This document shows positions 10,491 to 64,000 of a DNA stretch of 64,000 bases, one piece after another. The notes under the pieces are model-generated. The model was not told the origin of the DNA. It saw only the letters and a list, made by a program, of their open reading frames with translations, and did not search any database. Source of the stretch: Octopus sinensis (Eukaryota); NCBI RefSeq assembly GCF_006345805.1, contig NC_043001.1, positions 99,262,001 through 99,326,000 of the forward strand, read 5' to 3'. How positions within the stretch are numbered: the first letter of the stretch is position 1; each line of letters opens with the position of its first letter. The translations under genes and the position numbers were made by a program.

Positions 10491-10886
10491 AATCTGGATA
10501 AGCTAATAGTTGTATTAAAGTAAATTCAAAATTTAATTTTATCAAATTGTAAGTTTAAATGTAAGTAAACACTGATTACAAGCATATTGAAATAAATAGA
10601 AAAAGAATTTAAAATCCTTGAGAATAATGCCTTAAAAAAACATGTCAATAATATATACATGTATCATGCATCAAGGACATGCCCTTTGGGTGAGGAAGAT
10701 AGGCAGTAAATTTCCAAATTAAAACTATAAATATTAATTATAGAATATAAGAAGTAAATGATTATAAACTCATTATAAAAATGCTAGTTTAGTGTATGAA
10801 ATTCAATATATAATTCAATAAATGGCTATTATTTTACTTGACAAACACAATTTCTCTGTACTCTACAACCTCAACATATATATATA

Positions 10887-11254
10887 TATCATAAAATATA
10901 TTTGCCAGCTAAATGTGGCGGTCCTATAGAGGACGGTGTTACTGCTATTTTTAGCCCCAGGAAGACATCTCCTCCAGTTGGCCAACGACACACTGTCTGT
11001 ATCTGATTAGTATTTGCGAGGGAGGTCATTGCTCAGATCTCTAGTCTAGAGATGGAAGCGATGACCTCCCTCGCAAATACTAATTGGATACAGACTGTGT
11101 CGTTGACCAACTGGAGGAGATGTCTTCCTGGGGCTAAAAATAACAGTAACGCCATCCTCTATAGGACTGCCACATTTAGTTGGCAAATATATTTTACGAT
11201 ACTATACTGTTACTGTTTATCTCTTGTTCAGGGATTTAGTATAACTTATCTTTC

Positions 11255-11255
<1 letters not shown>
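10887..11255 (+). mobile_element. ~315-bp near-perfect palindrome (10887-11201) plus 3' extension; structured-motif family member 1
   Basis: Arms are reverse complements about the centre ATCTCTAG-T-CTAGAGAT (11037-11053). Related to 25828-26126 and 11895-12112. Confidence 0.8.
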
Positions 11256-11302
<47 letters not shown>

Positions 11303-11304
<2 letters not shown>

Positions 11305-11478
11305 CATAGGAGTGACTGTGTGGTAAGTAGCTTGGTTACCAACCACATGGTTCTAGGTACAGTCACACTGCGGGGAACTTTGGGCAAGTGTCTTCTACTA
11401 TAGCCTCGGGCCAACCAAAGCCTTGTGAGTGGATTTGGTTGACGGAAACTGAAAGAAGCCCATCGTATATAGGTATAT

Positions 11479-11548
<70 letters not shown>

Positions 11549-11580
11549 ATGTTTGTGTGTCTGTGTTTGTCCCCTGTGCA
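11303..11580 (+). mobile_element. tRNA-SINE, 5' half
   Basis: GGCATAGGAGTGACTGTGTGGTAAG head, then TTGGGCAAGTGTCTTCTACTATAG, as in 28776. Confidence 0.85.
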
Positions 11581-11599
11581 ACACGACGACCTTGAACCC

Positions 11600-11822
11600 A
11601 CAAGAGTAAACAAGAGAGACAGAGACAGGCAGAAACTAGGAAAATGTCCCTTGTACTTGAATACTATGCAAATATTCTTTTAAAAAACTTTTCTTTTAAT
11701 GTTTCCAAAATTTAATTGTTTTCCATACTTACAGTTGAAAAAGTCTTAATGACTGAAACCGGTACTGAAATGTTTCGTATAAAATTATTTTAGCATTTTC
11801 TACCTTGACTGTTTTTTTCCAT
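11600..11822 (+). mobile_element. Solo Penelope-type pseudo-LTR remnant with degenerate minimal hammerhead (11732-11767)
   Basis: CAG-TTGAAAA-AGTC-TTAAT-GACT-GAAA-CCGG-TA-CTG: stems I and II, GAAA and a palindromic stem III are present, but the CUGANGA box is mutated. Confidence 0.55.
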
Positions 11823-11827
11823 ACATG

Positions 11828-11894
<67 letters not shown>

Positions 11895-11895
<1 letters not shown>

Positions 11896-12112
11896 GAAAT
11901 ATTAAAATTACTAAGTCTCTATAAAAGAGATTATGGCAGCGTTTACTGGAAATTAATTGTTATCGCCATATTAATATGGCATTCTTATAGATATAAGAAT
12001 AATCGCTGCCATGGTCAGCTCCATGAGGCCACTGCCATCAAGATAGCTATTGATACACGATCTGTATCCATTATAACCTTCGAACAAGGGAGGTCAGCCG
12101 CTTCACACTGCC
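11895..12112 (-). mobile_element. Structured-motif family member 3 (single arm, divergent)
   Basis: Shares CCTCCCT..GGATACAGA..GTGT, AATAGC and the helix order with 10887-11255 and 25828-26126. Confidence 0.65.
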
Positions 12113-12117
12113 AGTCC

Positions 12118-12950
12118 TTTTATCCTTTTATTCTTTTACTTGTTTCAGTCATTTGACTGCAGCTGTGTTGGAGCACTGCCTTTATTCAAGCAAACTGACC
12201 CCAGTACTTATTCTTCGTAAGCCTAGTACTTATTTTATCAGTCACTTTTGTCGAACTGCTAAGTTACGGGGACATAAACGCACCAGCATCAGTTGTCAAG
12301 TGATGTTGGGGGGGACAAACACAGACACACAAATACATACACACACATACATACATTCATGTATATACACACATACATTCGTATATCTCTCTCTATATAA
12401 ACGGCAGTTTGTCTGTGTGTGTTTCTGTGTGTCTGTTTGGTTGTACCCTCACTCTGACCACGGCTTTCAACCGATTCTGATGAAATTTGACACACACATA
12501 GCCCAATGTCATTATTCAAAACTAACGCAGCGAAAATTTTGAAAAGTTCCCCCAGTTCTGAAAAAAATCGATAAATTCGACATGGGGTCGAGAATCAGAA
12601 ACACAAACCACAGACTGTCTAGGGGACGCAACTCCACCTTTTTAACTCTAAAAAAAATTTACCATCATTTTTTCCCCATTTTTTTGCTATATTTTGGCTA
12701 TAACTATCTTAAAATGCTTTATAGTTATTTCCCTTACAAACCCGAGCAACACCGGGCGATACTGCTAGTATATATATATATATATATAAAATGGGCTTCT
12801 TTCAGTTTCTGTCTACCAAATCCACTCACCAGGCTTTGGTTGGCCTGTGGCTATAGTAGAAGACACTTGCCCAAGGTGCCATATAGTGAGACTGAACCTG
12901 GAACCATGTGGTCGGTAAGCAAGCTACTTACCACACAGCAACACGTGTGC
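12118..12950 (-). mobile_element. tRNA-SINE interrupted by a Helitron in its internal microsatellite
   Basis: SINE tail 12118-12385 and head 12785-12950 match the family of 28776-29205. Confidence 0.85.
12386..12768 (+). mobile_element. Non-autonomous Helitron
   Basis: A|TCTCTCTCTATATAAA...GTCTGTGTGT 5' end. Hairpin CCCGAGCAACACCGGG (12741-12756) then CTAG|T. Confidence 0.85.
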
Positions 12951-12973
12951 CTATATCACCACCACCATCATTG

Positions 12974-13005
<32 letters not shown>

Positions 13006-14591
13006 GCTAAACCCCATTGATAGTCAATAATGTACTCAGCTGCTGTGGTCCAGCTGCAGGGAACAATGATTACTTCTCATATCATGTCTAGCCACATCTT
13101 TGAAGCTCAGTCATCCTGTATTCTCATTTTTCATACTACTAAACCACCATGAACGCAGTGTTTTGTCATGGCAACAAAGATTCCTACCACATTTGTCTCT
13201 TAGCTGTCCTTGGGGATGAACTAGTGGCATAATTAGAATGTTGGATAGAATGCCTTGCAGTATTCATTCTGAACCCCTGCTCTCTGAGTTCAAATCAAAC
13301 CAAGTCAACATTGCCTTTCGTTTTTTCAAGGTTGATAAATAAAAAAAAAAAATGTACCAGTCCAAGAAAGAGTGGATTGGTGGAATTATTAGAGTGCTGG
13401 ACACAAGATGTCTTGCAATATTTGTTCCAGCTCTGTATTCTAAGTTCAAACCACTCGCTCTCACCAATAAATGAGAACATTTTTGTCAGGAGTTGCAACA
13501 AGCAGATAATACCAAACTTGATAAACCAATTGAAATATAGTTCCCTTTCTTCAAGTGCAAGATAAAATGCCATCACCATCACCACCATCAGCACCACTGC
13601 CACCACCATTACTACCCACTAAAGCAAAAGACTTCAATTTCTATGGTATGTGCTTTAACCTGTAAGGAGGTTTCTTACTAAGTTGTTTTTTTACCACTTT
13701 GTACCATTTCTGGGAACAACCAATGCTATGTTAACCTGAAAGGAAAGGCTCTAAGTGGTACTAGAAATATCAGCCAAATCTCCTTCATATCACATTAATA
13801 TCATTTTAAGTGAAGGGAGGATGCATTAAGTAATATAATACTAGATACTCCTAAAAAAAAAAGAGAATGGTTACAGTTATAATACCTTTGATCACAAATC
13901 TTCCGGATCAATGTTGGCCTGGAGGCTAAATAATAACGGCACCAACAATAATAATAACTGTAACAAGAAAGTAGAATCAAATGGTCAGGTTGCTGTTGTC
14001 ATCTCATTTATTATCTATAGCACACATGCTGAATGTTAAAAGTTAAACTCTGTATGTTTAAATGACATCAGGCTATATTTACAAAATAGTACAGAAAAAA
14101 AACCAGCGATGGATAGAAATATAGCAGCAGTGCATTCATGTGCATTAACAGCATACCCTGAATACATACATGCACATGCACTCTTGCACACTCACACACC
14201 ACGTGCACAACAACATACCCATCGGCTAATTATCTGATACTGTTGAGCTTTCCTTTAACTCTCTCCTTGCTGTCATATTGCACTTCAAGTGTGTTTCCTT
14301 CTCTTTGCTTTCATCTCAAATTGGTTTCAACCTGATTCAGCAGACCATGCTACATACACTCTAGCAGCACAGCTTCAACGACCACCTTCTCTCACATCTT
14401 TATTCTTACTCCAACGCACAAGCTGCATCATTTCCGTAATATTCCCATCGATTGTTTGCTAGAAGGACAGTGGTGGTCATGGTGGGGGTGGGAGTGGGTG
14501 GAAGATAAAAAGAAATGGGAAAAAGAAAACAGAACATATCTGTTCAAAATTACCCTGTTCAAACACTAGTTCAGATTAATTAATTATACCC

Positions 14592-14641
<50 letters not shown>

Positions 14642-14879
14642 TTTAATTTGTTCCATCTCCCACCTCACAAAAGCCCTAATGTTGTTACTTTTTCTTGGTG
14701 CAATTTTAATTGTTATTGCAATAATCATTGATTTCTAACTTTTACACACACACACATGTAATAGACTTATCAGGATGGAAATATACTTAATTGAATTGAT
14801 CCACGTATATATGGTTGGTATCCATACATATTTTTTGCTTAATTTAAAGGGTCGGTCTTCTGGTGGAAAGTGCTATGTC

Positions 14880-15900
14880 CTTCAAAGTCTTCTAGACTGA
14901 TGAGACTGATGCTGTTGGTAATGTTCCTCTTGAACAGTTGCAGAGAAGAAAAAAAAACAATATGGACATATAGAGAAATCCTGAGAATTAAGATTAAGGA
15001 AATGAAAGGATTGAACAAAGCAGTGTGTGGTTTAGTTGTCGGGGCACATTATAGGTGAAGAAAGAAGGAAACATATGAGTCAAGAAGGTTTGAGTAAAGG
15101 TGACAGAAGTAGAAAAAGCAAAGTAAGTAGACACACATTTATGTCCAGAGGCTGGTGTTAGTGAGTGACTTAATGCTAATAAGTTGAGTAACCCTTTTTT
15201 TCTAATGCATTCTAGGATGTTAGATGTCAGTTTGCATAGCAGCACTGTTGCAGATGTGTGGAAGTAGTACTACATTGTGAGTCCTAGCTGACCTTTGTGT
15301 TTTCTAACCACGAAGTCAGATTTAAAGAGAGGGGGGAAAGTGAGAGAAAGAGAGAGGAGAAGAGCGAGAAAGAGAGAGGGAAGAGAGAGGAAGAGAGAGG
15401 GGGAGAGGAGAGAGAGAGATATACAGACAGACAGAGCAACAGAAACAGGGATAGAGAATGAATCTATCCAGTACTTGACTGGTACTTTATTTATCAACCC
15501 CCAAGGAGATGAAAGGCATTGTAGACCTTCCTAGGATTTAACTGAGAGCACAGACCTGGAACAGATACAGCAAAGCATTGAGGATGTGAGATTACCAGGA
15601 GAGAGCATCAGTGATCTAAAAATGTCCCAGAGAGATAAAATACAAAGCAGAATATTGGTATGATTTGAAAAGGCTAAGTAGAGAATGTTCTGACAAGACA
15701 TTAAATTGCATCCTTTGATGAGGTTCCAGCTCAAGAATTCAGGAGTTTTAAGAGTATCAAGTTACTCCTTAGTTACTACTACTCTCTGGTTTGCTCTGGC
15801 CTGGGATGATAGTACCTGTCAAAAGTCCAAATTATGGATCACAGAGTAGATGTTTCTTGTGATTAAGTCATAGAGGACTCAAAAGAGGGCTCGCCTTCAG
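14880..15900 (-). pseudogene. Highly degenerate LINE fragment (AP-endonuclease region, CR1/Jockey-like)
   Basis: SNI...LNLLALS peptide in ORF 14994-15245 resembles the APE N-terminus. Interrupted by GA repeats and a SINE piece. Confidence 0.35.
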
Positions 15901-16034
15901 ACATTTGTCACATGTCAGACATTTTCCCACAGGTGCATGAACATACACTTATGTTATATAAACCAGTTCCCCTCAGGGTTAAAAAGACTCTGTTTCGAAG
16001 GTAAGCCCAGAAGAGTAGGAAACTATCAGAATAA

Positions 16035-16300
16035 AATGGCTGTGTGATATGAAACTTGCTTCCCAACAACATGGTCTTTGGTTCAGCCCCACTGTATGAC
16101 GACAGTTTGAGTAGGTCTTCTATAGGCTTGGGCTAGCCAAAACCTTGTGAGTGGATTTCATAGACAGAAAGATTCTTTGTAAGCCTAGTACTCATTCCAT
16201 TGGTCTCCCTTGCCTAACCGCTAATGTACGGAAAACATAAACACACCAACATCAGTTGTTAATTGATGGGGGGGGGGACAAACACAGACAGACAAACATA
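16035..16300. mobile_element. tRNA-SINE with head on + (16035-16170) and tail inverted (16172-16300)
   Basis: Both halves match the 28776 family in opposite orientations. Confidence 0.65.
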
Positions 16301-16361
16301 CAATGTAATTATTCTTTTTCATTCCAGGTGCTATTATATTAAACATTTGCGAAGAGTAACC

Positions 16362-17352
16362 ATGCCATGCACAAAAAATTCAGCAGAACTGTCAGATTTT
16401 CAAAGAGGCAGGGCAATCTGAGGCTGGTCTTTGCCAGCAAAAAATTGCCGAAAATCTTCAAATTCCTTTTGCTACTGTAAATAGAATTATAAGTGCAATT
16501 CAAAAGCCAAGGAAAGAATCAACAGATTCTCGTCCCAGTTCACCTAGGCCCTTGGAAAGGAAGCTTTGCTGTTTGAAGAGAATTGTGGAAAACGAACCCC
16601 ATTCAAAGGCTTCCGATATTGCAAAACAGCTAGAAGTTAGTCCAAGAACATGTGTAACATATCTGCATAAGCTTCGATATTATGGAAGAGCTGCTAGAAG
16701 AAATCCTCTCCTTCAACCAATTAATATCATGAAAAGAAAGAAACGAGGAGATGCCAGAAAAATCCAGTTCATTTTAGGATAGAGTGATTTTCTCAGATGA
16801 ACCCAGATTTGCATTATTTTCAGACAGTAGGCATGTTTGGATCTGGAGGCTTTCCAATCAAGAATTTGATTTGAAACAACTCCAACCAACTGTGAAACAT
16901 GGCAGTATCTCTATAATGGTATGGGGAGCTATCACCAGCAATGGTCGTTCTGAGCTGATTGAATGTGTTGGAACCATAAACTCTGAAAAATACATCAAAA
17001 TACTTAAGCAAGGACTACTTCCGATGTATTCACATAATAACATAACAAAAAATGAGTTTTTATTCATGGAAGATGGGGTTCCATGCCATACAGCGAAAAG
17101 GAATCAACAATGGTTGACTGAAAATGGGATGAAAAAGCTAACTTAACCCAGCCAATCTCTTGACATGAACCAATTGAAAATCTTTGGAGTATATGAAATA
17201 GAGCTATACTAAAAACTCGACAGAAACCTAAAGCTAAAGGTGAATTCTTTTGATTGTTGCATGAAAAGTGGGCAGAAATTCCACAAAGCTCATCAGTTCA
17301 ATGCCAAAAGGACACATGTTGGTGGGATTTGCCAGGGCAGGGCCAATCCATA
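16362..17352 (+). pseudogene. Tc1-family transposase pseudogene
   Basis: ELSDFQRG (HTH start), YYGRAARRNPLL, IFSDE, PTVKHG.SIMVWGAI, FMEDGVPCHTA, P.QSLDMN.IENLW and SMP motifs, with several stops and frameshifts. Confidence 0.92.
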
Positions 17353-17840
17353 ACATTACATGACATGTCAGATTCGCCAGAGGGGTAGACCCAATCCATA
17401 ACATTACATGACATGTCAGATTAGCCAGAGGGGCAGACCCAATCCATAACATTACATGACATGTCAGATTCGCCAAAGGGGCAGACCCAACCCATAACAT
17501 TACATGACATGTCAGATTCGCCAGAGGGGCAGACCCAACCCATAACATTACATGACATGTCAGATTCGCCAGAGGGGCAGACCCAACCCATAACATTACA
17601 TGACATGTCAGATTCGCCAGATGGCAGACCCAACCCATAACATTACATGACATGTCAGATTCGCCAGAGGGGCAGACCCAACCCATAACATTACATGACA
17701 TGTCAGATTAGCCAGAGGGGCAGACACAACTAACAACATTACATGACATGTCAGATTAGCAAGAGGGGCAGAGCCAACCCATAACATTACATGACATGTC
17801 AGATTAGCCACAGGGGTATACCCAACCCATAGCATACATG
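17330..17840 (+). repeat. 48-bp minisatellite, ~10.5 copies
   Basis: Unit GACCCAACCCATAACATTACATGACATGTCAGATTCGCCAGAGGGGCA, e.g. starts at 17484 and 17532. Confidence 0.95.
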
Positions 17841-17899
<59 letters not shown>

Positions 17900-18099
17900 T
17901 AGAAGGTTTGGAAATGATGTAGATGTATTATATATTAGAAGAATTAAGGTACTCAGAAATCTGGATGGTTTTATATTTACAGATATTTATTAATGTCAAA
18001 TGTTTTTATAAATCATATATTAGCACTTGCATCCACTCTAGTGGAGTTGTCAGATTGAACTTTTTCTAGAATTTTGTCTCTTTTTATAGTATTATTGAG

Positions 18100-18465
18100 T
18101 GTGTAGGGGTGGAGAGAGATATAAGATAGTACAAGAGGGTGAGGAATGGGGAGAAAGTGAGAGAGAGTGCGCGCGCGTGTGTGTGTGTGTGTGTGTGTGT
18201 ATGCGCGCGTGTGTGTGCATGTGCTTTTGTATCTGGAAGGACTGTCAATGGAAAAGAGAAGGAAAGGAAGAAGGAAGAGAGAAAGAAGAAAAAATGTGTT
18301 GATATCTTTGCAGCTGGTCAGTTCTTTCAATAGGAAGTGGTTCTTGGCTTTTAGAAATGGCAAACTCGGGTGGTCACTTCAAGGGGGATATATGCTATTT
18401 TTTAAAAAATTGTCTGGATTTTTTTTTATCATTGTCTTGTGAGAGAGAGAGAGAGAGAGAGTGTG

Positions 18466-18504
<39 letters not shown>

Positions 18505-20460
18505 ATGTGTGTGTGTGTGTGCATGTGCTTTTGTATCTGGAAGGACTGTCAATGGAAAAGAGAAGGAAAGGAAGAAGAAGAGAGAAAGAAGAAATAATTG
18601 TGTTGACATCTTTGCAGCTGTTCAGTTCTTTCAATCCAATGTTTGATTCCTGTGCTGATATGGGTTGGAGAATCTGGATGTAAGATTGTTTTTATTTATG
18701 TATATGTACATATGTGTAGTATTGTGAGTGCATGTCTGTTTTTGTGTGTGTGTGTGTGTTGTGTGTGTGTGTGTGTGCATGTGGGTGTCTGTGTATCTGA
18801 AAGGAGTGTCAATAGAAAAGAGAAGGAAGGAAAGAAGGAAGAGAGAAAGAAGAAATAATTGTGTTGACATCTTTGCAGCTGTTCAGTTCTTTCAATCCAA
18901 TGTTTGATTCCTGTGCTGATATGGGTTGGAGAATCTGGATGTAAGATTGTTTTTATTTATGTATATGTACATATGTGTAGTATTGTGGTGCATGTCTGTT
19001 TTTGTGTGTGTGTGTGTGTGTGTGTGTTTAATACAATTTACTTTACAAAATTGGTCCTTCATCTAGTACAAATTATTATAGAAATATTTTCAGCCATTCA
19101 GTTTGGGGGAGAACTCTGAAGGAGATGTCATTCCTTGGGCATTTATAGAAGGGAAAGATTTTAAATTTTCCTTATCCACATGTATCTAAGTCTTTACTCA
19201 GTGGAATCTTTTGCAGTTCCTCCTATTGAACGTGTTGTTGGTGAATTCTGGCTCGTTGGCATAAAGAATTTCCAGTTTCACCTATGTAATTCTCCTTGCA
19301 TGTGGGGCAGGTTATGCAGTATATTACATTCTGCGTCTTGCAGTTCATGTCTGCATTTACTTTGAATATGTGACCACTCTTAAATTTTATTTGTTTGTCT
19401 CCCTTTATATATTTGTAGGTGGGGTTACTGCAGATCCCACATCTACCATCTCCGCACTTTTACAAAGAATTCGGTTTTAGTCTCTGATGAGAATTTCACT
19501 CTTGTTTGTTGCTTCTTAAGGTTTTTGTCTTGGTGTTTACTGTTTTTTATGTAATATTTGTTTAACGTGTTTCCCATTTTGGGGTTTTATAGGACTATTG
19601 GTAAGTTTGAATGTATGATTTGAAACATGTTGGTAACTCTAGGGTTGTGTGTGTTTATGAAAGGGATGATATTTTCTTTGTTTTTCTTTTTTGGAGTTCT
19701 GAGTTGTATGATGTCTAGTTTCATTGCTCTTGAGATTCCATTTTTTAAAAATTTGAGTGGGTATTTTTGTTCTAGTAGGAAGTTTTTAAGTTCATTTAGT
19801 CTTATTTGGTGTGTTTGTGAGTTGGTTACTATGCTGCATATGCGTCTCGCCATACTATATGGAATATTTCTTTTTATGTGGGAGGGGTAGCAGGAGTAGA
19901 AATTTAAATATTGGTATGTGTCGGTTTTTTGTAGTAGATGTCTGTTGTGACAATGGAGTTGTGTATCTTGATGTTGATGTCCAGGAAGAGAAGTTCATTG
20001 TGGCTGGTATCTATCGTGAAGTTGATCGATGGGTGCAGTGTGTTGAGAATGTTGTGGAATGTTCATAGATCTTCTGATCTGTTCCAAAAGATGACGCAGT
20101 CATTGAGGTAGCATTTCCACTTTTTCTTGATGTCTTCTCTGAAGTCGTGGTCGAAGAATTTCCCTATTTCATCATATAGTTTGTTCTCAAAGAAACTCAT
20201 CACCAGGTTGGCATATGAAGGTGTGAATTTTGTATCCATAGCCATGCCCATTATCTGTCGGTATGCCTTGTTGTTAAATGAGAATGTGTTTTCTTCAAGT
20301 ATTAATTGGGTGGCTTTGGTGATAAAGTCTGTTTTGAAACGTTCATCTATGAGTATAGATGTCAACACAATTATTTCTTCTTTCTCTCTTCCTTATTTCT
20401 TTCCTTCTCTTTTCCATTGACACTTCTTTCAGATACACAGGCACCTACACACACATGCAT

Positions 20461-20533
<73 letters not shown>

Positions 20534-20860
20534 CACTCACAAGACAATGGTAAAAAGAAATCCAGACAACTTTTTTTTTAAATTAACATATATCCCCCTT
20601 GAAGTGGCCACCTGGGTTTGCCATTTCTAAAAGCCAAGAATCACTTCCTATTGAAAGAACTGACCAGCTGCAAAGATGTCAACACATTTTTTTTCTTTCT
20701 CTCTTCCTTCTTCCTTTCCTTCTCTTTTCCATTGACAATCCTTTCAGATACAAAAGTGCACACACACGCACGCACACACACACACACACGCACTCTCTCT
20801 CACTTTCTCCCCATTCCTCACCCTCTTGTACTATCTTATATCTCTCTACACCCCTACACA
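18100..20860. repeat. Long inverted repeat (about 18100-18872 vs 20357-20860) bracketing a Penelope element; left arm has extra tandem duplications (18620-18760 vs 18880-19030)
   Basis: For example GTGGTTCTTGGCTTTTAGAAATGGCAAAC (18338) versus GTTTGCCATTTCTAAAAGCCAAGAATCAC (20616). Confidence 0.9.
19040..20356 (-). mobile_element. Penelope-like element, Neptune-type (RT, Zn-knuckle, GIY-YIG), 5'-truncated and degenerate
   Basis: ENTFSFNNKAYRQIMGMAMDTKFTPSYANL, CYLNDC (decayed RYLDD), ARRICSIV..RLNELK..LLEQKYP and KCGDGRCGIC near 19430-19460. Confidence 0.88.
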
Positions 20861-21106
20861 TGAAAAAAACAAACAAACAGAGAAACGAGACATACAACAT
20901 AACATTTCATTGTTCAAAAAAAAATTTCATTTCTGTTTTTGCTTTTATGTTTTCGTTTCTCCTTGTCATGTCCTGTACCCATATATGCATGTATATATAC
21001 ATATATATGTAGGTATGTACATATATTTATGTATATATGCATATATTTATATATTATTTATATTATTATATGATCGAATGCCACGCATCCTTTTCCGGGT
21101 AAGTTT

Positions 21107-21149
<43 letters not shown>

Positions 21150-21257
21150 ATAAAAATGGTAAAACAACAAAAGAATGAAAGAGATGGCGGTGTGGATTTC
21201 CACATCCGAAACTCAGAGTTTTCTCATGGCTACCGAATAATTGTTAGATATTACATT

Positions 21258-21293
<36 letters not shown>

Positions 21294-21437
21294 ATATATA
21301 TATATATAAGTTCAGCAAAATTTAGATTCAAATGAATATGGTACTTAAGTTAGATGCACCAGAATTTTGTATGGTGTTATCCATATAAATCCGTGGGGTG
21401 ATAATACTCAAAATAAGCAACAAGAATAACTTCGGTA

Positions 21438-21527
21438 ATTTGGTACGATCGTTTCGCACTACATCATTTTATTAAATGTTGTAAGTATTACAACAGTTTT
21501 AAAATGCTGAGCACTCATCAGCCATTA
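21438..21527 (-). ncRNA. Type I minimal hammerhead ribozyme (Penelope pseudo-LTR type), intact core
   Basis: Minus strand: TGG-CTGATGA-GTGCT...(long stem II)...AGTGC-GAAA-CGATCG-TA-CCA, with a palindromic stem III and a GUA cleavage triplet. Confidence 0.8.
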
Positions 21528-21894
21528 ATAGAGGTTTTCCATTAATACATAATTTTCATATCAAGTGATAACATTATAGAGAAGGTAGATATATAGACAA
21601 AGATGTGGATTTAAATTTTAAGAACATTTAAGGTAGTGGAGTTTATCAACTGACTGAATAATATTCAGTTGCTATAAACTGCTAGAAGGTTCTGAGAAGA
21701 ATGGACAATTGAAAGGAGACAAAAAAGATTTTCTATTTATAGAAATAGGGGTGAAATAGATGTCAAAGTTCCATATAAAGAAATTTTGGTAGAGAGAGAA
21801 GGGTTGTCACACTACAGATGCCAATTACTACTATTTGGTAAACAGATTTAGCATTAGGAAAACTAGGTTAATGTGAAATGGTTATAATGATCAC

Positions 21895-22130
21895 ATTTAA
21901 GGCAGCGAGTTGGCAGAAACATTAGCACGCCGGGCGAAATGCTTAGCGGTATTTCGTCTGCGTTACGTTGTGAGTTCAAATTCCGCCGAGGTCGACTTTG
22001 CCTTTCATCCTTTCGGGGTCGATAAATTAAGTACCAGTTACGCACTGGGATCGATGTAATTGACTTAATACCTATGTCTGTCCTTGTTTGTCCCCTCTGT
22101 GTTTAGCCCCTTGTGGGTAATAAAGAAATA
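21895..22130 (+). mobile_element. Young tRNA-SINE with Meta-domain-like core and 15-bp TSD
   Basis: TGGCAGAAAC (A-box-like) and GAGTTCAAATTCC (B box), core GCCTTTCATCCTTTCGGGGTCGATAAATTAAGTACCAG. TSD GGTTATAATGATCAC at 21880-21894 and 22131-22145. Confidence 0.9.
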
Positions 22131-22734
22131 GGTTATAATGATCACTCATAGAGAATGCAGAGATTTTTTTAAACTAATATACATCAACATTATAATTAGC
22201 TGATAGGTTTTGAGTATTTTGATACGTTGGATTGAAGGAGAAATTATAGATCTAAAATTTATTCAATTTAGAGAAAAATCAGTCACTTATTATGAGTAGG
22301 CATAATACTTATTAATTGGGAACAAAAGTCTTATTAATCAAGTGAATATATTAGGGGTCAAAAATATATAATAGGAAAAATGGAAGAGGAGAAATCAAAG
22401 AAGAAAGGTATTCGTAGGTTTAGTAGAAGGTGATTTAATAATATGAAGAGAAGTAACTTAGAAGAGTAAATTTCTCAGATTTCATAGATAGTGAGTTGTT
22501 ATTGATGAATTAAAATATAGAATCTGTTGAAAATAATATTTACTACCCGTGGAGAAAGGTTAATTAGTTAGGTAAAAAGATCCTAGGTTAATTATATATT
22601 AAGAAATGGAAGTGAGATAATCAAGGTGAACCGAATAGTTTCCTCAGGAACATAGAATTTATACTATTTAGTATAGGAGAATATCAAAAGAGGAGAATTT
22701 AATTCTAAGTTTGCAATGAAGTTTTTTAGTAATC

Positions 22735-23150
22735 TCTTTTTTACTCTTTACTCTTTTACTTGTTTCAGTCATTTGACTGCGGCCATGCTGGAGCACCACC
22801 TTTAGTCGAGCAAATCGACCCCAGGACTTATTCTTTGTAAGCCCAGTACTTATTCTATCGGTCTCTTTTGCTGAACCGCTAAGTGACGGGGACGTAAACA
22901 CACCAGCATTGGTTGTCAAGCAATGCTAGGGGGACAAACACAGACACACAAACACACACACATATATATATATATATACATATATACGACAGGCTTCTTT
23001 CAGTTTCCGTCTACCAAATCTACTCACAAGGCATTGGTCGGCCCGGGGCTATAGCAGAAGACACTTGCCCAAGATGCCATGCAGTGGGACTAAACCCGGA
23101 ACCATGTAGTTGGTTAGCAAGCTACTTACCACACAGCCACTCCTGCGCCT
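22735..23150 (-). mobile_element. Full-length tRNA-SINE (OK/OR-like)
   Basis: Near-identical reverse complement of 28776-29205. Confidence 0.9.
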
Positions 23151-23764
23151 ATGTATGTTGAATTAAAAACCAGTATGGTATATTCGTTCTTAATTGGTTA
23201 TAAAGAAGTAAAATTTGAAAAATCTAGGAATATTCACAATATTATTATTTAAAATGTTTAAACGTACGGGTTGTGCGATGTATGCAAGATACTCCTGGCT
23301 CCGAACAGTTATTTAACAGATTTGTATTACTCCAATGTTTTAAAATTTCATGTGTTTCCATAGAACAAAGTTCACAACCATCCCTACTATTTTTATAAGG
23401 CCATGCTTTCCTTAGTATATCCCATTTCAGGTTGAATTCTATATTATTCGTTTTTATTTCCCAAATCTTACTAGACAATGTTGTGCAACCTACTTTGTGT
23501 TTGAGCCTAAAGGAGGAAAAATGATTGTTTAAACGTTTTTTAAACCTACCGAACAACCAAAATAAAGATAGTTGTTAGTTGAAGTTATTATTGTACATTT
23601 ATAAATCACATTTTGGACCGAACAACGGCCAGATACTGGACATTTCGACCTAATCCTACAATCACAACTAGGGGGATAATTTCTAGTACTAGTATTATTT
23701 ATGGACAATTCATTTTCATTTCTGTTATTTGAGTTGTTATTAGTATTAGCGTTATTTTCTCTAA

Positions 23765-24092
23765 GTGAGGGCGCGTGGCTTAGTGGTTAGGGCATTCGGC
23801 TCATGATCGTAAGGTTGTGAGTTCGATTCCCGGCGACGCGTTGTGTCCTTGAGCAAGACACTTTATTTCACGTTGCTCCAGTCCACTCAGCTGGCAAAAA
23901 TGAGTTGTACTTGTATTTCAAAGGGTCAGCCTTGTCACTCTCTGTGTCACGCTGATTATCCCCGAGAACTACGTTAAGGGTACACGTGTCTGTGGAATGC
24001 TCAGCCATTTGCACGTTAATTTCACGAGCAAGCTGTTCCGTTGATCGTATCAGCTGGGACCCTCGTCGTCGTAACCGGCGGAGTCTTTTTTA
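23765..24092 (+). mobile_element. tRNA/CORE-like SINE with 11-bp TSD inside the Penelope ORF
   Basis: TGGCTTAGTGG A box, GTTCGATTCCC B box, TGTCCTTGAGCAAGACACTT core. TSD ATTTTCTCTAA at 23754-23764 and 24093-24103. Older copies at ~31150-31280 (+), 35170-35310 (-) and 51450-51600 (-). Confidence 0.9.
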
Positions 24093-25396
24093 ATTTTCTC
24101 TAATAGTAGTTACATTGTTATGCAAACTGGAGTTACTAGTTATTAAGCTATCCTCATTATCATCACCTACTACACTTTTATCTATACTACCTATATTATT
24201 GATGCTGCTATTATCATTGTTTATATTAATGTTGATATTATTGTTATTATTATCATCATCATTATTAATATTATTATTACTATTACCATTATTATTATTA
24301 TTATTATTATTATTATCATTATTATTATTGCTATTTTTATTATTATTATTACTATTATTGTTATTGTTACTATTTATTCTATCCCTAGCTAACTTAATAT
24401 TTTTACTATTAAGTCTAGCTATTATGGTAGCCATATGTGGGAGAGTAGAATATGATATTCTTACTGATTTCTTAAAAATTATTTTATAATATTTATGGGA
24501 AGCTGGGAAGTTTCTTTCCAGTATAGACATAAATCTACTGTATATATTCCTCGAGATCGCACAATTGAAGGGGATATTTAGCCAAATAAAATTTTTTCTT
24601 TTATATTTTTTTGTTTGAGTAAGAGTGGGAAAGATTAGTGTTATCCATATTCTTACGAGATTCATTATTCATTTTAGTCATATTTTTATGTTTATTAGGT
24701 TTTTTCTTTGTGGGAGAAATTTTTGTATACTTATTTATGTTTATTATATCTGGATTAGCATTTTCATATTTATTTCTGATCTGTTTACTATTTCCATTCT
24801 TATTATTGGGTTTATACACTAGGTTCTCTTCTTCTATTGATTTATGTTTATTTTGAGTATGAGATTCTATATTACTTGAGCCATTTACATTCACTCCATC
24901 GTTTAGGAGATTTATGTTATCAAGATCTAGGAAGGTGATTTCCTGGTCATACCCAGCCTTGGATAATACAGCATTATAATGATTAGAGTGAGAGTCAAAG
25001 ATTTCAATATTTGATGATAATTTGAAATTCTCTGATAAATATTTTCCACTATTGATTTAAGTATATTCGGGGGGTGATTGGATGATTTATTTACATATCT
25101 GGTAACTTCACCTTCCTTTCTAAATGGGTGATGTAACTTTGAATTTAAATCTAAGGTAACGTCTAGAAAATTCACTATCTTGGTGTTAGGTTCATACGTA
25201 ATGCCTAGGTTGAAATCTTTGAAAAATTTACTAATTTTCTTTTTTATTCTCTCAATTTTTGATTTATTGTTACTAGGTACAATAAACAAAGCATCATCTC
25301 TATATAAAAATCACCTTGTAATTCCGGGATATCCCTACTTATGCATTTTAATAAATACGCTCCTACTAGATTAGTTATCTCCGCCAAATCACTTGA

Positions 25397-25487
<91 letters not shown>

Positions 25488-25554
25488 CATATATATATAA
25501 ATACACATACATACACACACACATACATATATATACATACATACATATTTATAT

Positions 25555-25810
25555 ATCATCATCATCATCATCATTTAATGTCTGTTTTCCATGCTGGCAA
25601 GGTTTGAATTCTGACTGAAAACTGGCAAGCTGGGGAGCTACACCAAGTTCCAATCTGATTTGGCATGGTTTCTACAGCCGGATACCCTTCCTAATTCCAA
25701 CCACTCCAAGAGTGTTGTGGGTGCTTTTTCTGTTCCACTGGCACAGATGCCATTTACAAAACACTGGCATCAGCCATGACTACGATCTAACTTGGCTTGA
25801 CAGGTCTTCC
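25555..25810 (-). mobile_element. RTE-type 3' tail fragment ending in (GAT)n
   Basis: Matches the 28370-28528 tail. Other copies at ~30200-30460, 50015-50165 and 53110-53370. Confidence 0.75.
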
Positions 25811-25827
25811 CATATATATATATATAT

Positions 25828-26126
25828 ATTGTGAAGTATATTTGCCACCTAAATGTGGCTAACCCTTAAGGGTGGATGCTACTGTAGCTTGTAGCCCCTG
25901 GAGGACATCTCCTCCAGCTGGCTATTGACACACTTTCTGTGCCCTATGAGTATTTGCAAAGGGAAGCCATCTTTCCCATTTTCAACCTGACATGATATAG
26001 CCGGACTCTCGAGTTTCTGGGTATCTGCTACAGTAGCATCCACCCTTAAGGTTTAACCACATTTAAGTGGCAAATATACTTCACGATGTTGTGCAGCTAC
26101 TGTTTATACCTCGCTCAGAGATTTAT
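25828..26126 (+). mobile_element. Inverted-repeat element; structured-motif family member 2
   Basis: 25828-25888 is the reverse complement of 26027-26087. The left arm extends the motif to ~25985 and the right arm has the same 3' extension as member 1. Confidence 0.75.
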
Positions 26127-26174
26127 TATATATACATACATATACACACACACACATATATATGTATATATTGC

Positions 26175-28528
26175 TTTAATGTTGGTGAAAAGAAAGAGGC
26201 TTGGAGAAGCCATTATGAAAGACTGCTGAATGTGGAGAATGAATGGGAGGAGGAGAGCCTGCCAAATGTGGACCCAGTAGAGGGACCAGCTATCCAAATA
26301 GACAGCTCCCTTGTAGTTAAGGCAATTAAGGGTATGAAACCAGGTAAAGCCCCCGGCCCATCAGGAATCACTGCTGAGATGCTTAAAACAGCTGGTTATG
26401 TGGGCTATGGCCTAGTCACCCGCATTGTAAACCAGGTAGTTCATAATGGAGTCATACCCAATGACTAGCATAGCAGCACTATAGTCAACTGCTACAAGGG
26501 TAAGGGTGATGCTCTAGATAGAAATAACTACAGGGGTATTAAACTGTTGGATCAGGTGATGAAGGTCACAGAGAGGGTCATAACCCATCTCATTAGGGAG
26601 AGAATTTGCTTAGATGAGATGCAGTTTGGTTTTGTGCCGGGTAGAAGCACCACTGATGCTATATTCCTAGTCCGACAACTGCAGGAGAAGTACCTAGCTA
26701 AAGATAAACCCCTCTACATAGCTTTTGTGGACTTGGAGAAAGCCTTTGACAGGGTCCCCCAATCCCTTATCTGGTGGTCGATGCGGAAACTGGAGATTGA
26801 CGAATGGCTAATAAGGGCTGTACAGGCCCTATACAGAGAGGCTGTCAGCAAGGTTAGGATTGGCAACGAATATAGTGAAGAATTCCGGGTAGAAGTAGGT
26901 GTACACCAAGGCTCAGTCCTCAGTCCCCTTTTATTCATCATAGTCCTCTAGGCAATAACAGAGGAATTCAAAACAGGTTGCCCCTGGGAGCTCCTCTATG
27001 CTGATGACCTGGCCCTCATAGCAGAATCACTACCGGAACTAGAAAAGAAATTTCGGGCGTGGAAGCAAGGGTTAGAATCAAAGGGCCTTAGAGTAAATGT
27101 AGCAAAGACCAAAGTTATAGTAAGCAGAAAGGCGAACTCAGCACACACCCCATTGGGCAGGTGGCCCTGCTTGATCTGTAGGAAAGGCATAGGTAGAAAC
27201 TCCATAAGATGCACCCAGTGTAAGCTATGGACGCATAAGAGGTGCAGCAACATCAAAGGGAAATTAACTGATAAGATAGCTTTCATGTGCGGCAGATGCA
27301 GAGGGACAATAGACACCACAAATACTCAGAAAACAGATTCCATCACACTCCAGGGGGAGAAACTAGAAGTAGTTGATAGTTTCCGCTACCTGGGTGACCA
27401 AGTTAGTAGTGGAGGTGGATGCTCAGAGAGTGTCACCACTAGAATACGAATAGCCTGGGCAAAGTTTAGAAAGCTCCTACTCCTACTGGCGACAAAGGTT
27501 CTCTCACTCAGAGTGAAAGGTAGATTGTATGATGCATGTGTGCGAACTGCCATGCTTCACGGTAGTGAAACATGGGCCGTGACTGCAGAGGACATGCATA
27601 GACTTGAAAGAAATGAAGCTAGCATGATCCGCTGGATGTGTAATGTCAGTGTGCACGCACGACAGAGTGTAAGCACCCTGAGAAAAATGCTGGATATAAG
27701 AAGCATCAGATGTGGTGTGCAAGAGCGACGCTTGCGATGGTATGGTCATGTACTGCAGATGGATGAGGAGAGATGTGTGAAGAAGTGCCGCTCCCAAACA
27801 GTTGAAGGAATCAGGGGGAGAGGTAGACCCAGGAAGACATGGGAATTAGGTAGTCAAGCATGACCTCAGAGCGTTGGGCCTCACTGAGGCAATGGCGAAG
27901 GACTGAGTTCTCTGGAGATATGCTGTGACTGCAAAGACCCGGGCTGCTTCCTGTACCAGTTCTGCATAGCTCCTGCCCATTCAAAGTACCTTGGATTCCA
28001 GAAAATCCTGCTGTGCTTGAGGAGACCTGTTGAGTCAAGTACATGAACATCGAAATAAATATCAATGGAAATAGTAGTTGTGATACCTGTGCCGGTAGCA
28101 CATAAAAAGCACCATCCGAACGTGGCCGTTGCCAGCACCGCCTTGACTGGCTTCTGTGCCGGTGGCACATAAAAAGCACCATCCGAACATGGCCGATGCC
28201 AGCGCCGCCTCGACTGGCTTCTGTGCTGGTGGCACATAAAAAGCACCATCCAAACGTGGCCGATGCCAGCGCCGCCTTGGCTGGCTTCCGTGCCGGTGGC
28301 ACATTAAACGCACCAACCGATCGTGGCTGATGCCAGACTCCCCTGGCACGTAAAAAGCACCCACTACACTCGCGGAGTGGTTAGCATTAGGAAGGGCATC
28401 CAGCTGTAGAAACACTGCCAGATCAGACTGGGGCCTGGTGCAGCCCCTGGCTTCCCAGACCCCGTCGAACCGTCCAACCCGTGCTAGCATGGAAAACAGA
28501 CGTTAAACGATGATGATGATGATGATGA
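26175..28528 (+). mobile_element. 5'-truncated RTE-clade LINE: RT, PHD-like finger, 3' UTR with 67-bp repeats and (GAT)n tail
   Basis: KAPGPSGI, QFGFVPGRSTTDAIF, FVDLEKAFDRVP, GVHQGSVLSPLLF, LLYADDL, FRYLG, RRLRWYGHV and RGRGRPRKTW motifs. In-frame stops at 26466 and 26949, frameshift near 27845. Confidence 0.95.
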
Positions 28529-28545
28529 ACATACATATATATGTG

Positions 28546-28619
<74 letters not shown>

Positions 28620-28775
28620 CATCCGAACGTGGCTGTTGCCAGCACCGCCTTGACTGGCTTCTGTGCTAGTGGCACATAAAAAGCACCATCCGAACATGGC
28701 CGATGCCAGCACCGCCTCGACTGGCTTATGTGCTGGTGGCACATAAAAAGCACCATCCAAACGTGGCCGATGCCA
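28089..28775 (+). repeat. 67-bp tandem repeat in the RTE 3' UTR (starts 28089, 28156, 28223, 28290) plus a displaced 155-bp copy at 28621-28775
   Basis: Unit GTGCCGGTGGCACATAAAAAGCACCATCCGAACGTGGCCGATGCCAGCGCCGCCTCGACTGGCTTCT. Confidence 0.9.
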
Positions 28776-28956
28776 GGCGCAGGAGTGGCTGTGTGGTAAG
28801 TAGCTTGCTAACCAACCACATGGTTCCAGGTTCAGTCCCACTGCGTGGCATCTTGGGCAAGTGTCTTCTGCTATAGCCCCGGGCCGACCAATGCCTTGTG
28901 AGTGGATTTGGCAGACGGGAACTGAAAGAAGCCTGTCGTATATATGTATATATATG

Positions 28957-63369: not shown

Positions 63370-63885
63370 TTACGTATTTAAAGCCCCATTTTGCCGAGTT
63401 GACCGTCGCCCATACCTTCTACTACTAGTTTCTGATTGTGAATTAGAGTTAACATTGTTACGTTTCAGTGCCATTCTGGCTTCTGCCTGTTCGAATTTTC
63501 TGTTAGCTCTTGCCTGGGCCATGGCCCTGGCGTTTCTTACTCTCTCCTTCCTCCTATACTCGTCATTTTGTCGAAGGATAGCCATTGAGATAGCATTCTC
63601 TTCTCGCTCTTTCCGCCTGTACTCGTCGTCCATTCTGGCCTGAGCTCTCGATAGAGCATTTTTTGCCCGTTCTCTTGCCCTATACTCCTCGCTCAAACGG
63701 TTTCGTCTCTGAGCAGCTGCATTTCGTTCTCTCTCTTTCGCCCGGTACTCTGGATCTTCTCTCATCCTCCTCATATTTTCAGCCGCGCGCGCTCTTGATA
63801 GTTCTTTGTTTGCAGTCCTATGTCTAACCAACAGCTCGCTCGATCTAGGTTGATCTTTGCGTACTGTTGTTTTAATCCTCGGCAT
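63370..63885 (-). CDS. 171-aa basic helical protein with four 21-aa E-Y-R-x-K-E-R-x-x-N-A repeats (STPR-like / Helitron N-terminal-like putative DNA-binding domain)
   Basis: Uninterrupted, GC- and CpG-rich ORF with AAAAC-ATG context. Repeats are conserved at protein level but diverged in DNA. Candidate acceptor TTTTAAACAG at 63950 and donor ATG|GTGAGT at 63364. Confidence 0.7.
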   Translation of the reverse strand: MPRIKTTVRKDQPRSSELLVRHRTANKELSRARAAENMRRMREDPEYRAKERERNAAAQRRNRLSEEYRARERAKNALSRAQARMDDEYRRKEREENAISMAILRQNDEYRRKERVRNARAMAQARANRKFEQAEARMALKRNNVNSNSQSETSSRRYGRRSTRQNGALNT

Positions 63886-64000
63886 GTTTTTGTTCCGTTT
63901 GCTGTGCGATCTTGCCTTTTAAATTCTGCCTGAATCCCCAGACAAGGGTCTGTTTAAAACAGCCAACACTTTGAAGTTTTTGTATATGAAATGCAGTTTA

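What the first reader, a model, noticed from the sequence alone, without database searches (positions are those of the whole stretch)
10887..26126. Covarying multi-helix motif shared by three divergent repeats: candidate new structured RNA or ribozyme in a hammerhead-less pseudo-LTR
Seen: members at 11055-11245 (+), 12112-11895 (-) and 25828-26126 differ strongly in sequence but keep the same helix order with compensatory changes. Helix A: GATACA/TGTGTC, GATACA/TGTATC, GGCACA/TGTGTC. Helix B: TAGC-type/GCTA-type base with an inner hairpin (CTGGAGGA-GATG-TCCTCCAG in member 2). Long-range helix: AACAGTAAC/GTTACTGTT (11142/11209), ATGGCAGCG/CGCTGCCAT (11933/12004), ACAGTAGC/GCTACTGT (26030/26096). 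It encloses hairpin C (TCCT-CTAT-AGGA, ATTCTTATA-TC-TATAAGAAT, ACCCTTAAGGGT) and hairpin D (GCCAC-ATTTAG-GTGGC, GCCATATTAATATGGC). A final small hairpin and TTAGTA follow. No CUGANGA/GAAA core and no tRNA boxes. Known: PLE pseudo-LTRs normally carry hammerheads. Inference: this is a selected cis-acting RNA or ssDNA structure, possibly a different self-cleaving or RT-recruiting module. I do not recognise it.
Basis: partly seen in the sequence, partly recalled or inferred. Interest (0 to 1): 0.8.

Follow-up and report, generated by a model that had tools for sequence, protein, structure and literature searches.

The report
Hammerhead retrozyme with conserved folded head
The three repeats are cut-off copies of one family of small (about 360-base) non-coding jumping RNAs that do carry a hammerhead ribozyme motif just upstream, and their shared, conserved fold holds the two spots where genomic copies end, so it is likely the landing site for the copying enzyme of a Penelope-like retroelement.

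Summary
The helices are real and covary, but 'hammerhead-less' is wrong. The three members are 5'-truncated copies of a superfamily of 358-363 nt non-coding, head-to-tail units (13 subfamilies sampled). A type I hammerhead core sits just upstream of the motif: complete in 73 of 108 copies spanning that region, and member 3 keeps its 3' half. This is a non-LTR retrozyme. A structure folded from one subfamily holds in a distant one (10 two-sided changes among 18 changed pairs), although no single pair is significant in a tree-aware test. Copies show Penelope-like (PLE) footprints: (TA)n targets, inverted 5' arms and two fixed 3' ends; 42 of 47 two-ended insertions have one short and one long end. 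The short end lies 11-20 nt after an invariant hairpin in 57 of 70 arms, whatever the sequence there. The fold therefore likely positions a PLE reverse transcriptase (inferred). The partner element, expression and cleavage were not shown. The scan holds no look-alike sequence, only other hammerhead/PLE-tail notes in other genomes. New member of a known kind; interest 0.5.

The parts
10886..11044 (-). Member 1, inverted left arm (family F1); 5'-truncated about 19 nt after the hammerhead cleavage site; ends at the short (S) site, then (TA)n
11046..11259 (+). Member 1, right arm (F1); ends at the long (L) site, then (TA)n
11087..11101 (+). Helix A of member 1
11104..11136 (+). Helix B of member 1 (outer stem plus inner hairpin with GATG loop)
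11142..11217 (+). Long-range helix of member 1 (11142-11150 with 11209-11217), enclosing hairpin C (11155-11166), hairpin D (11169-11184, GCCA/TGGC stem) and the single-stranded stretch that holds the S end
11219..11235 (+). Hairpin E of member 1; L ends fall shortly 3' of it
11890..12117 (-). Member 2 (family F2, young: top 40 scored copies 98-100% identical); single arm starting 11 nt after the cleavage site and ending at the L site. Helix A 12068-12052, B 12049-12016, long-range helix 12012-12004 with 11941-11933, C 12000-11981, D 11980-11965, E 11930-11916
25826..26025 (-). Member 3, left arm (family F3): hammerhead 3' half, rod strand, helices A, B, C, D; ends at the S site, then (TA)n
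26003..26024 (-). 3' half of the type I hammerhead kept in member 3 (helix II 3' strand, GAAA 26017-26014, helix III with two extra bases, UC at 26005-26004)
   Evidence: one search compared with the family copies
26027..26130 (+). Member 3, right arm: long-range helix (26030/26096), decayed C and D, hairpin E; ends at the L site, then (TA)n

Best explanation
The three repeats are 5'-truncated genomic copies of a non-coding, hammerhead-bearing ~360-nt tandem unit (a non-LTR retrozyme), and the multi-helix motif is the conserved head of that RNA, which likely binds and positions the reverse transcriptase of an autonomous Penelope-like element. Steps. (1) Shown: head-to-tail units of 358-363 nt with one type I hammerhead each, homologous over their whole length, folding as a rod with the hammerhead at one end and a multibranch head at the other. 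(2) Inferred from known retrozymes: tandem copies are transcribed and self-cleave, as dimers where helix III is only a short palindrome, giving linear and circular RNAs. (3) Shown: copies lie in or at (TA)n, are 5'-truncated, often have an inverted arm, and end at two fixed places, about 175 nt (S) and 215-240 nt (L) after the cleavage site; two-ended insertions almost always have one S and one L end. (4) Inferred: a PLE protein, possibly a dimer, nicks both target strands and primes cDNA at S from one nick and at L from the other; the invariant hairpin D stem sets S by distance and hairpin E sets L; the two cDNAs are joined at their truncated ends.
For: Hammerhead core complete in 73, nearly complete in 26, absent in 9 of 108 spanning copies not selected by a hammerhead pattern. 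Core variants C3-G8 and U3-A8; helix III a perfect palindrome in 65 of 100 complete cores, with different palindromes in different subfamilies (this set includes pattern-selected copies). U3-A8 is described for PLE hammerheads (PMC4209133). Natural cleavage-to-cleavage units of 358, 359 and 362-363 nt; five of the six correctly cut units fold as circles at z -3 to -9, one at -2.1, and a seventh, mis-cut unit scored 0. 1878 genome matches to a pattern over the D-to-E stretch versus 0 for the reversed control. 3' ends: 53 at 171-180 and 107 at 211-240 among 200 arms. 42 of 47 two-ended insertions are L+S (p about 1e-8 against 0.5); 7 of 8 in the set not selected on its ends. TATATA within 20 nt after 111 of 186 ends versus 7% background. 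An autonomous Hydra-type PLE of this genome shows the same inverted long/short arrangement. Craig et al. describe the tail as often present at one end only (PMC8557442). Frangieh et al. show that the tail equals two internal RT start sites, that both target strands are cut and extended, and predict a dimer (PMC11167929). S lies 11-20 nt after the D stem in 57 of 70 arms across subfamilies with unrelated spacer sequence; all 8 D-stem positions are invariant across 13 subfamilies. Private variants are shared by both arms in five F2 insertions.
Against: No autonomous partner found: nhmmer with the unit's profile finds no match at the fixed pLTR position in 60 Hydra- and Neptune-type loci or in 67 further loci, mostly Neptune-type; the few hits there are separate insertions. 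The published octopus Naiad 3' end does not resemble the motif by eye. The partner's pLTR would be expected to share the recognition element. No single base pair is significant with a tree-based null. Hairpin C is not universal, and the long-range helix has mismatches in F2b-d. The S-to-L distance (about 45-60 nt) is longer than the 30-40 bp tail quoted for PLEs. 5' breaks are not clearly enriched at the cleavage site over all families (16 versus 15, 25 and 13 in the next 20-nt bins), so in vivo cleavage is not shown. In the anole element the protein-binding region was mapped to RNA that includes sequence 3' of the start sites, so the binding element need not be the 5' hairpin. Rfam's hammerhead models do not score these motifs; the assignment rests on my descriptor and the published core.
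Confidence: 0.8

Rival explanations
1. Same element, but the head is a general stability or processing fold of a viroid-like circular RNA (nuclease protection, keeping the hammerhead folded, export); the two ends are set by A/U-rich single strands that happen to prime at (TA)n targets, not by specific recognition of hairpins D and E.
For: Retrozyme RNAs are described as highly self-paired (PMC7229834). The whole unit, not only the head, keeps its fold. Both ends lie in A/U-rich unpaired stretches in most subfamilies. No PLE pLTR with the motif was found.
Against: S keeps its distance from D in subfamilies whose spacer is C-rich. The D stem is invariant in sequence rather than covarying, which mere stability does not demand. 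The one-S-one-L rule needs an ordered complex.
Confidence: 0.3
2. The units are pLTR fragments of an autonomous PLE not yet found, amplified as 3' truncations, rather than an independent non-autonomous element.
For: Retrozymes are proposed to derive from PLE pLTRs (bioRxiv 10.64898/2026.07.22.740005). The genome has many PLE families and my search covered only some. PLE pieces abut two copies directly (L141, L157).
Against: In the loci inspected, copies that extend upstream run into the previous 360-nt unit, up to three or more units; PLE protein matches in the 170 retrozyme loci are scattered, not in one fixed place.
Confidence: 0.1
3. The head is a second, unknown self-cleaving ribozyme whose cuts create the S or L ends.
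For: Conserved multibranch fold without an Rfam match; 14 of 39 invariant columns lie outside the consensus pairs.
Against: A hammerhead is already present. S ends spread over about 10 nt and L ends over about 20 nt, in variable sequence. Autonomous PLEs without this fold show the same two-end pattern, which in the anole element comes from RT initiation.
Confidence: 0.06
4. A non-autonomous DNA element (Helitron/Helentron- or MITE-like) whose hairpins act in single-stranded DNA.
For: Inverted arms, subterminal hairpins and microsatellite targets also occur in such elements (recalled, not tested).
Against: A conserved hammerhead with core covariation only makes sense as RNA. Fixed 3' ends with scattered 5' breaks are a retroposition pattern. 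The hammerhead-sense strand folds better than its complement in six of the seven units tested.
Confidence: 0.03

Closest known systems
Metazoan non-LTR retrozymes (Cervera and de la Pena 2020, PMC7229834; mussel units of 350-390 bp, axolotl units of 330 and 350 bp)
   Same: Non-coding head-to-tail units of about 360 nt, one type I hammerhead per unit, highly self-paired predicted circle, thousands of dispersed and tandem copies, PLEs in the same genome.
   Different: Here a subfamily series shows a conserved, covarying head, fixed internal 3' ends and inverted arms, i.e. footprints of PLE-type insertion; the parts of that paper I read propose PLE mobilisation only as a candidate. Circular RNA is not shown here. 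Tandem units within one insertion (L052) differ, which a single-circle rolling template would not give.
Pseudo-LTR and 'tail' of endonuclease-bearing Penelope-like elements (Craig et al. 2021, PMC8557442; Frangieh et al. 2024, PMC11167929)
   Same: Hammerhead upstream of two 3' ends, tail on one end only, inverted 5'-truncated arm, partial tandems, (TA)n targets.
   Different: No ORF; S-to-L distance about 45-60 nt; the two ends lie in a large conserved multibranch fold that the pLTRs of the Neptune- and Hydra-type PLEs sampled from this genome lack.
Vertebrate retrozymes as non-autonomous PLE derivatives (bioRxiv 10.64898/2026.07.22.740005)
   Same: Same class of element and the same proposed dependence on PLEs.
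   Different: There the link is sequence homology to pLTRs and co-occurrence; here homology to a partner pLTR was not found, but the insertion footprint is PLE-like. That study sampled no mollusc.

Membership tests
non-LTR retrozyme | Type I hammerhead in each unit | tested here: met
   Core complete in 73 of 108 spanning copies, near-complete in 26, by my descriptor; Rfam models give no hit
non-LTR retrozyme | Head-to-tail units of 150-450 bp | tested here: met
   358, 359, 361-363 nt units; three consecutive cleavage sites in L070 and L148
non-LTR retrozyme | No protein-coding frame, no LTR/PBS/PPT, not tRNA-derived | tested here: met
   No PLE ORF at a fixed place in 170 loci; no tRNA in five loci; PBS and PPT not searched separately
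non-LTR retrozyme | Highly self-paired monomer | tested here: met
   Circular fold z -2 to -9 for six correctly cut natural units
non-LTR retrozyme | Self-cleavage and expression as linear and circular RNA | not testable with these tools
   Only assembled contigs of runs guessed to be RNA were available
element mobilised by PLE machinery | Tail at one end, inverted 5'-truncated arm, partial tandems | tested here: met
   42 of 47 two-ended insertions L+S; same pattern in an autonomous Hydra-type PLE
element mobilised by PLE machinery | Microsatellite (TA)n target bias | tested here: met
   111 of 186 ends versus 7% background
autonomous PLE pseudo-LTR | Flanks an RT plus GIY-YIG ORF | tested here: not met
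   No collinear ORF; no motif at the pLTR of the PLE families sampled
Naiad/Chlamys-type hammerhead-less pLTR | Absence of a canonical hammerhead | tested here: not met
   Hammerhead present
known Rfam family | Covariance-model match | tested here: not met
   None at gathering score in the window; only sub-threshold hits, mostly microsatellite-type, on five loci

The most novel reading that the evidence does not exclude
The head is the specific recognition and ruler element by which a non-coding RNA captures a telomerase-related PLE reverse transcriptase: hairpins D and E each anchor one active site of a dimeric enzyme at a fixed distance from its start site, much as a boundary element positions the template in telomerase RNA (analogy recalled, not tested), so that one folded 360-nt RNA explains the PLE tail and the one-short-one-long insertion rule.
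Probability: 0.4. Interest if true: 0.75.

Novelty: new member of a known kind. Interest (0 to 1): 0.5.

Why it matters
How animal retrozymes move, and what RNA feature a PLE reverse transcriptase recognises, are open in the papers read (PMC7229834, PMC11167929, the 2026 preprint). This family gives genomic evidence that a non-coding hammerhead unit is inserted with PLE hallmarks, a natural series of 13 subfamilies that shows which helices and bases are kept, a young subfamily close to its active state, and several intact candidate partner ORFs in the same genome. That makes a minimal RNA-protein test possible. As a claimed new ribozyme or hammerhead-less pLTR it is not novel.

Tried and rejected
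Rfam on the window and on five loci: nothing relevant. ARAGORN on five loci: nothing. Pfam on four PLE fragments of the window: no informative family. RNAalifold on raw decayed copies gave poor, non-overlapping structures and weak tests; replaced by averaged single-copy folds. Tree-aware all-pairs covariation: no significant pair. Enrichment of 5' breaks at the cleavage site: not seen over all families; 7 of about 39 breaks at positions 1-11 in F2 alone (counted) is only a hint and is biased by the query. Expression: no RNA holder on record; contigs of runs guessed to be RNA hold the unit and its head-to-tail joint, but the joint also exists in genomic tandems, so this is no evidence. Partner search: Hydra-type and several Neptune-type families found, none with the motif; Naiad not located in the genome (no match; a chance match without ORF); four short motif words gave only one unrelated hit in the PLE consensus supplement of PMC8557442. 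Weak leads not pursued: the U3-A8 core is shared by F2/F4 and the Neptune-type families; the extended helix III of F1/F3 resembles the Hydra-type one. G-U versus A-C asymmetry was too small to decide RNA versus cDNA folding (read). No covariance model was built. One unit (L022) was cut wrongly and is not counted as a monomer. Earlier-findings look-ups by sequence and by genome were empty.
Full report
Observation. Members 1 and 3 each consist of two inverted arms; member 2 is a single arm. Members 1 and 3 are about 75% identical and member 2 is too distant for a clear BLASTN hit, yet all align end to end. Two details are wrong: the CTGGAGGA hairpin belongs to member 3, and member 3 does not end in TTAGTA. 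The window lies in a 2.7-Gb animal genome; its SINE-like repeats suggested an octopus-type cephalopod to me, which is recalled and comes from no call.

Each member is a high-copy repeat: 2405, 1644 and 2748 first-look candidates, of which 40 each were scored. A pattern over the D-to-E stretch matches 1878 times versus 0 for the reversed control. Longer copies continue upstream into a type I hammerhead in all three families. Among 108 distinct copies that span that region and were not selected by a hammerhead pattern, the core is complete in 73, nearly complete in 26 and absent in 9. The core occurs as C3-G8 and as U3-A8, a variant described for PLE hammerheads (PMC4209133, part 1 of 4 read). 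Helix III is a perfect palindrome in 65 of 100 complete cores, with different palindromes in different subfamilies, as expected for dimer-type hammerheads. Member 3 keeps the 3' half of the hammerhead in the window; members 1 and 2 break about 18 and 11 nt below the cleavage site. Upstream of the hammerhead comes the previous unit: cleavage-to-cleavage distances are 358, 359 and 361-363 nt. The units are homologous over their whole length and fold as a rod with the hammerhead at one end and a multibranch head at the other. This meets the sequence definition of a non-LTR retrozyme (PMC7229834, parts 2-4 of 6 read).

Covariation. 137 copies covering the head fall into 13 clusters of two or more at 87% identity plus 12 singletons; 123 were kept after a length filter and removal of duplicates. 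A sequence-only alignment puts helices A, B, the long-range helix, D and E in register (two of three alignment settings tried misregistered the long-range helix, and I used the third). Folding each copy alone returns these helices in most subfamilies. A structure taken from F3 alone and tested on F2 has 18 changed pairs of 40; 15 still pair and 10 changed on both sides, against backgrounds of 0.33 and 0.10. F1 to F3 gives 6 two-sided changes among 10 changed pairs (background 0.04). Other comparisons are weaker (F3 to F5 5 of 13 kept; F3 to F2c 10 of 18). An R-scape-like test with a tree-based null finds no single significant pair, because most changes fall on a few deep branches. So selection on the fold is supported at the level of the whole structure, not pair by pair. 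Hairpin C is the least constant element; all 8 positions of the D stem are invariant.

Ends. Of 200 arms, 53 end 171-180 nt after the cleavage site (S) and 107 end at 211-240 (L). Among 147 insertions left after merging 179 on shared flanks, 47 have two outward ends at S or L, and 42 of these have one of each; in the set chosen by the hammerhead alone it is 7 of 8. Members 1 and 3 both follow this rule. TATATA follows 111 of 186 ends within 20 nt, against 7% of random positions in the same loci. A young autonomous Hydra-type PLE of the same genome shows the same arrangement. Craig et al. list partial tandems, inverted 5' copies and a tail often at one end only as PLE hallmarks (PMC8557442; passages, sections 6 and 11, supplement searches and part 24 seen). 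Frangieh et al. show that the tail is the stretch between two internal RT start sites, that both target strands are cut and extended, and that the protein is predicted to be a dimer (PMC11167929, parts 1-2 of 4 read). S lies 11-20 nt after the D stem in 57 of 70 scored arms (of 71), across subfamilies whose spacer is A/T-rich or C-rich; L lies 55-79 nt after D in all but two of the listed arms, shortly beyond hairpin E. In five F2 insertions both arms share private variants, pointing to one source RNA or locus (or later conversion), while the tandem units of L052 differ from each other, which argues against copying of a single circle.

Mechanism. Shown: unit structure, hammerhead, conserved fold, two ends, L+S rule, targets. 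Inferred: transcription, self-cleavage, circularisation, and priming by a PLE protein at S and L, with D and E as anchors. I put the identity as a PLE-mobilised retrozyme at about 0.9, the specific positioning role of the head at about 0.4-0.5, a general stability role at 0.3 and a second ribozyme at 0.06.

Partner. The genome holds young Hydra-type and several Neptune-type PLE families with long open frames, but none of the pLTRs sampled carries the motif, and Naiad was not located. This gap is the main weakness of the recognition model. Expression could not be judged.

Novelty. The class is known, and its link to PLEs has been proposed (bioRxiv 10.64898/2026.07.22.740005, parts 1-3 of 5 read; its supplements were not seen). 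Eight searches listed no paper whose title or abstract describes a cephalopod retrozyme, or a conserved structure that holds both PLE start sites in a non-autonomous element; most listed papers were seen only as listings. The giant squid genome paper only counts 235 hammerhead matches (PMC6962438, passages). The supplement of PMC7229834 could not be read and may list such a family; Dfam and Repbase were not available. The scan's own index has no look-alike sequence and no note on this genome; two notes from other genomes describe truncated PLE tails with hammerheads, which agrees in kind and was not checked. Verdict: new member of a known kind, with a new and testable structural clue; interest 0.5.

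Noticed in passing
window 11582-11820 (+): pLTR fragment of a Neptune-type PLE (75% to the 3' end of the intact element in L288) with its own minimal hammerhead (U3-A8 core at 11735-11741, GAAA at 11755-11758), tail-to-tail with member 2 across one (TA)n tract.
   Followed up: partly
window 23250-25400 (-), 19000-20340 (-), 21179-21253: Broken Hydra-type PLE (with a SINE-like insertion), broken Neptune-type PLE and a Hydra-type pLTR fragment; the two broken elements do not end in the motif. Clade names rest on recalled motifs and the description.
   Followed up: partly
window 26200-27863 (+), 16360-17146 (+), 63370-63918 (-): RTE-like LINE frames, Tc1-like transposase pieces, and an arginine-rich repeat frame of the kind seen at the start of Helitron proteins (labels recalled from the translations).
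   Followed up: no
window 17335-17841, 18463-19027, 28087-28776: Tandem arrays with periods 48, 261 and 67.
   Followed up: no
L231-L235, L286-L297: Several young PLE families with long open frames (717 aa Hydra-type; 772-883 aa Neptune-type). The Neptune-type pLTRs found use the U3-A8 hammerhead core, some with tails of roughly 35-45 nt; one family has a long 3' region with repeated TGACGTC and ATTGG words.
   Followed up: partly
L141:1099-1294 and L157:1270-1480: F2b copies join directly to Neptune-type PLE pieces; these could be template switches between the two RNAs or nested insertions.
   Followed up: partly
L066, L068, L069, L073, L076, L078, L089, L090: One F3 insertion multiplied as part of a larger duplicated segment, mostly on contig C30; merged before counting.
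   Followed up: partly
L101, L133, L139 (subfamily F4): Hairpin C is replaced by an unpaired C-rich stretch while D, E and the end positions are kept.
   Followed up: no
runs X10, X16, X17: The F2 unit or close relatives occur in runs labelled as three other organisms (B, C, D), with the exact head-to-tail joint in X10 and X17.
   Followed up: no
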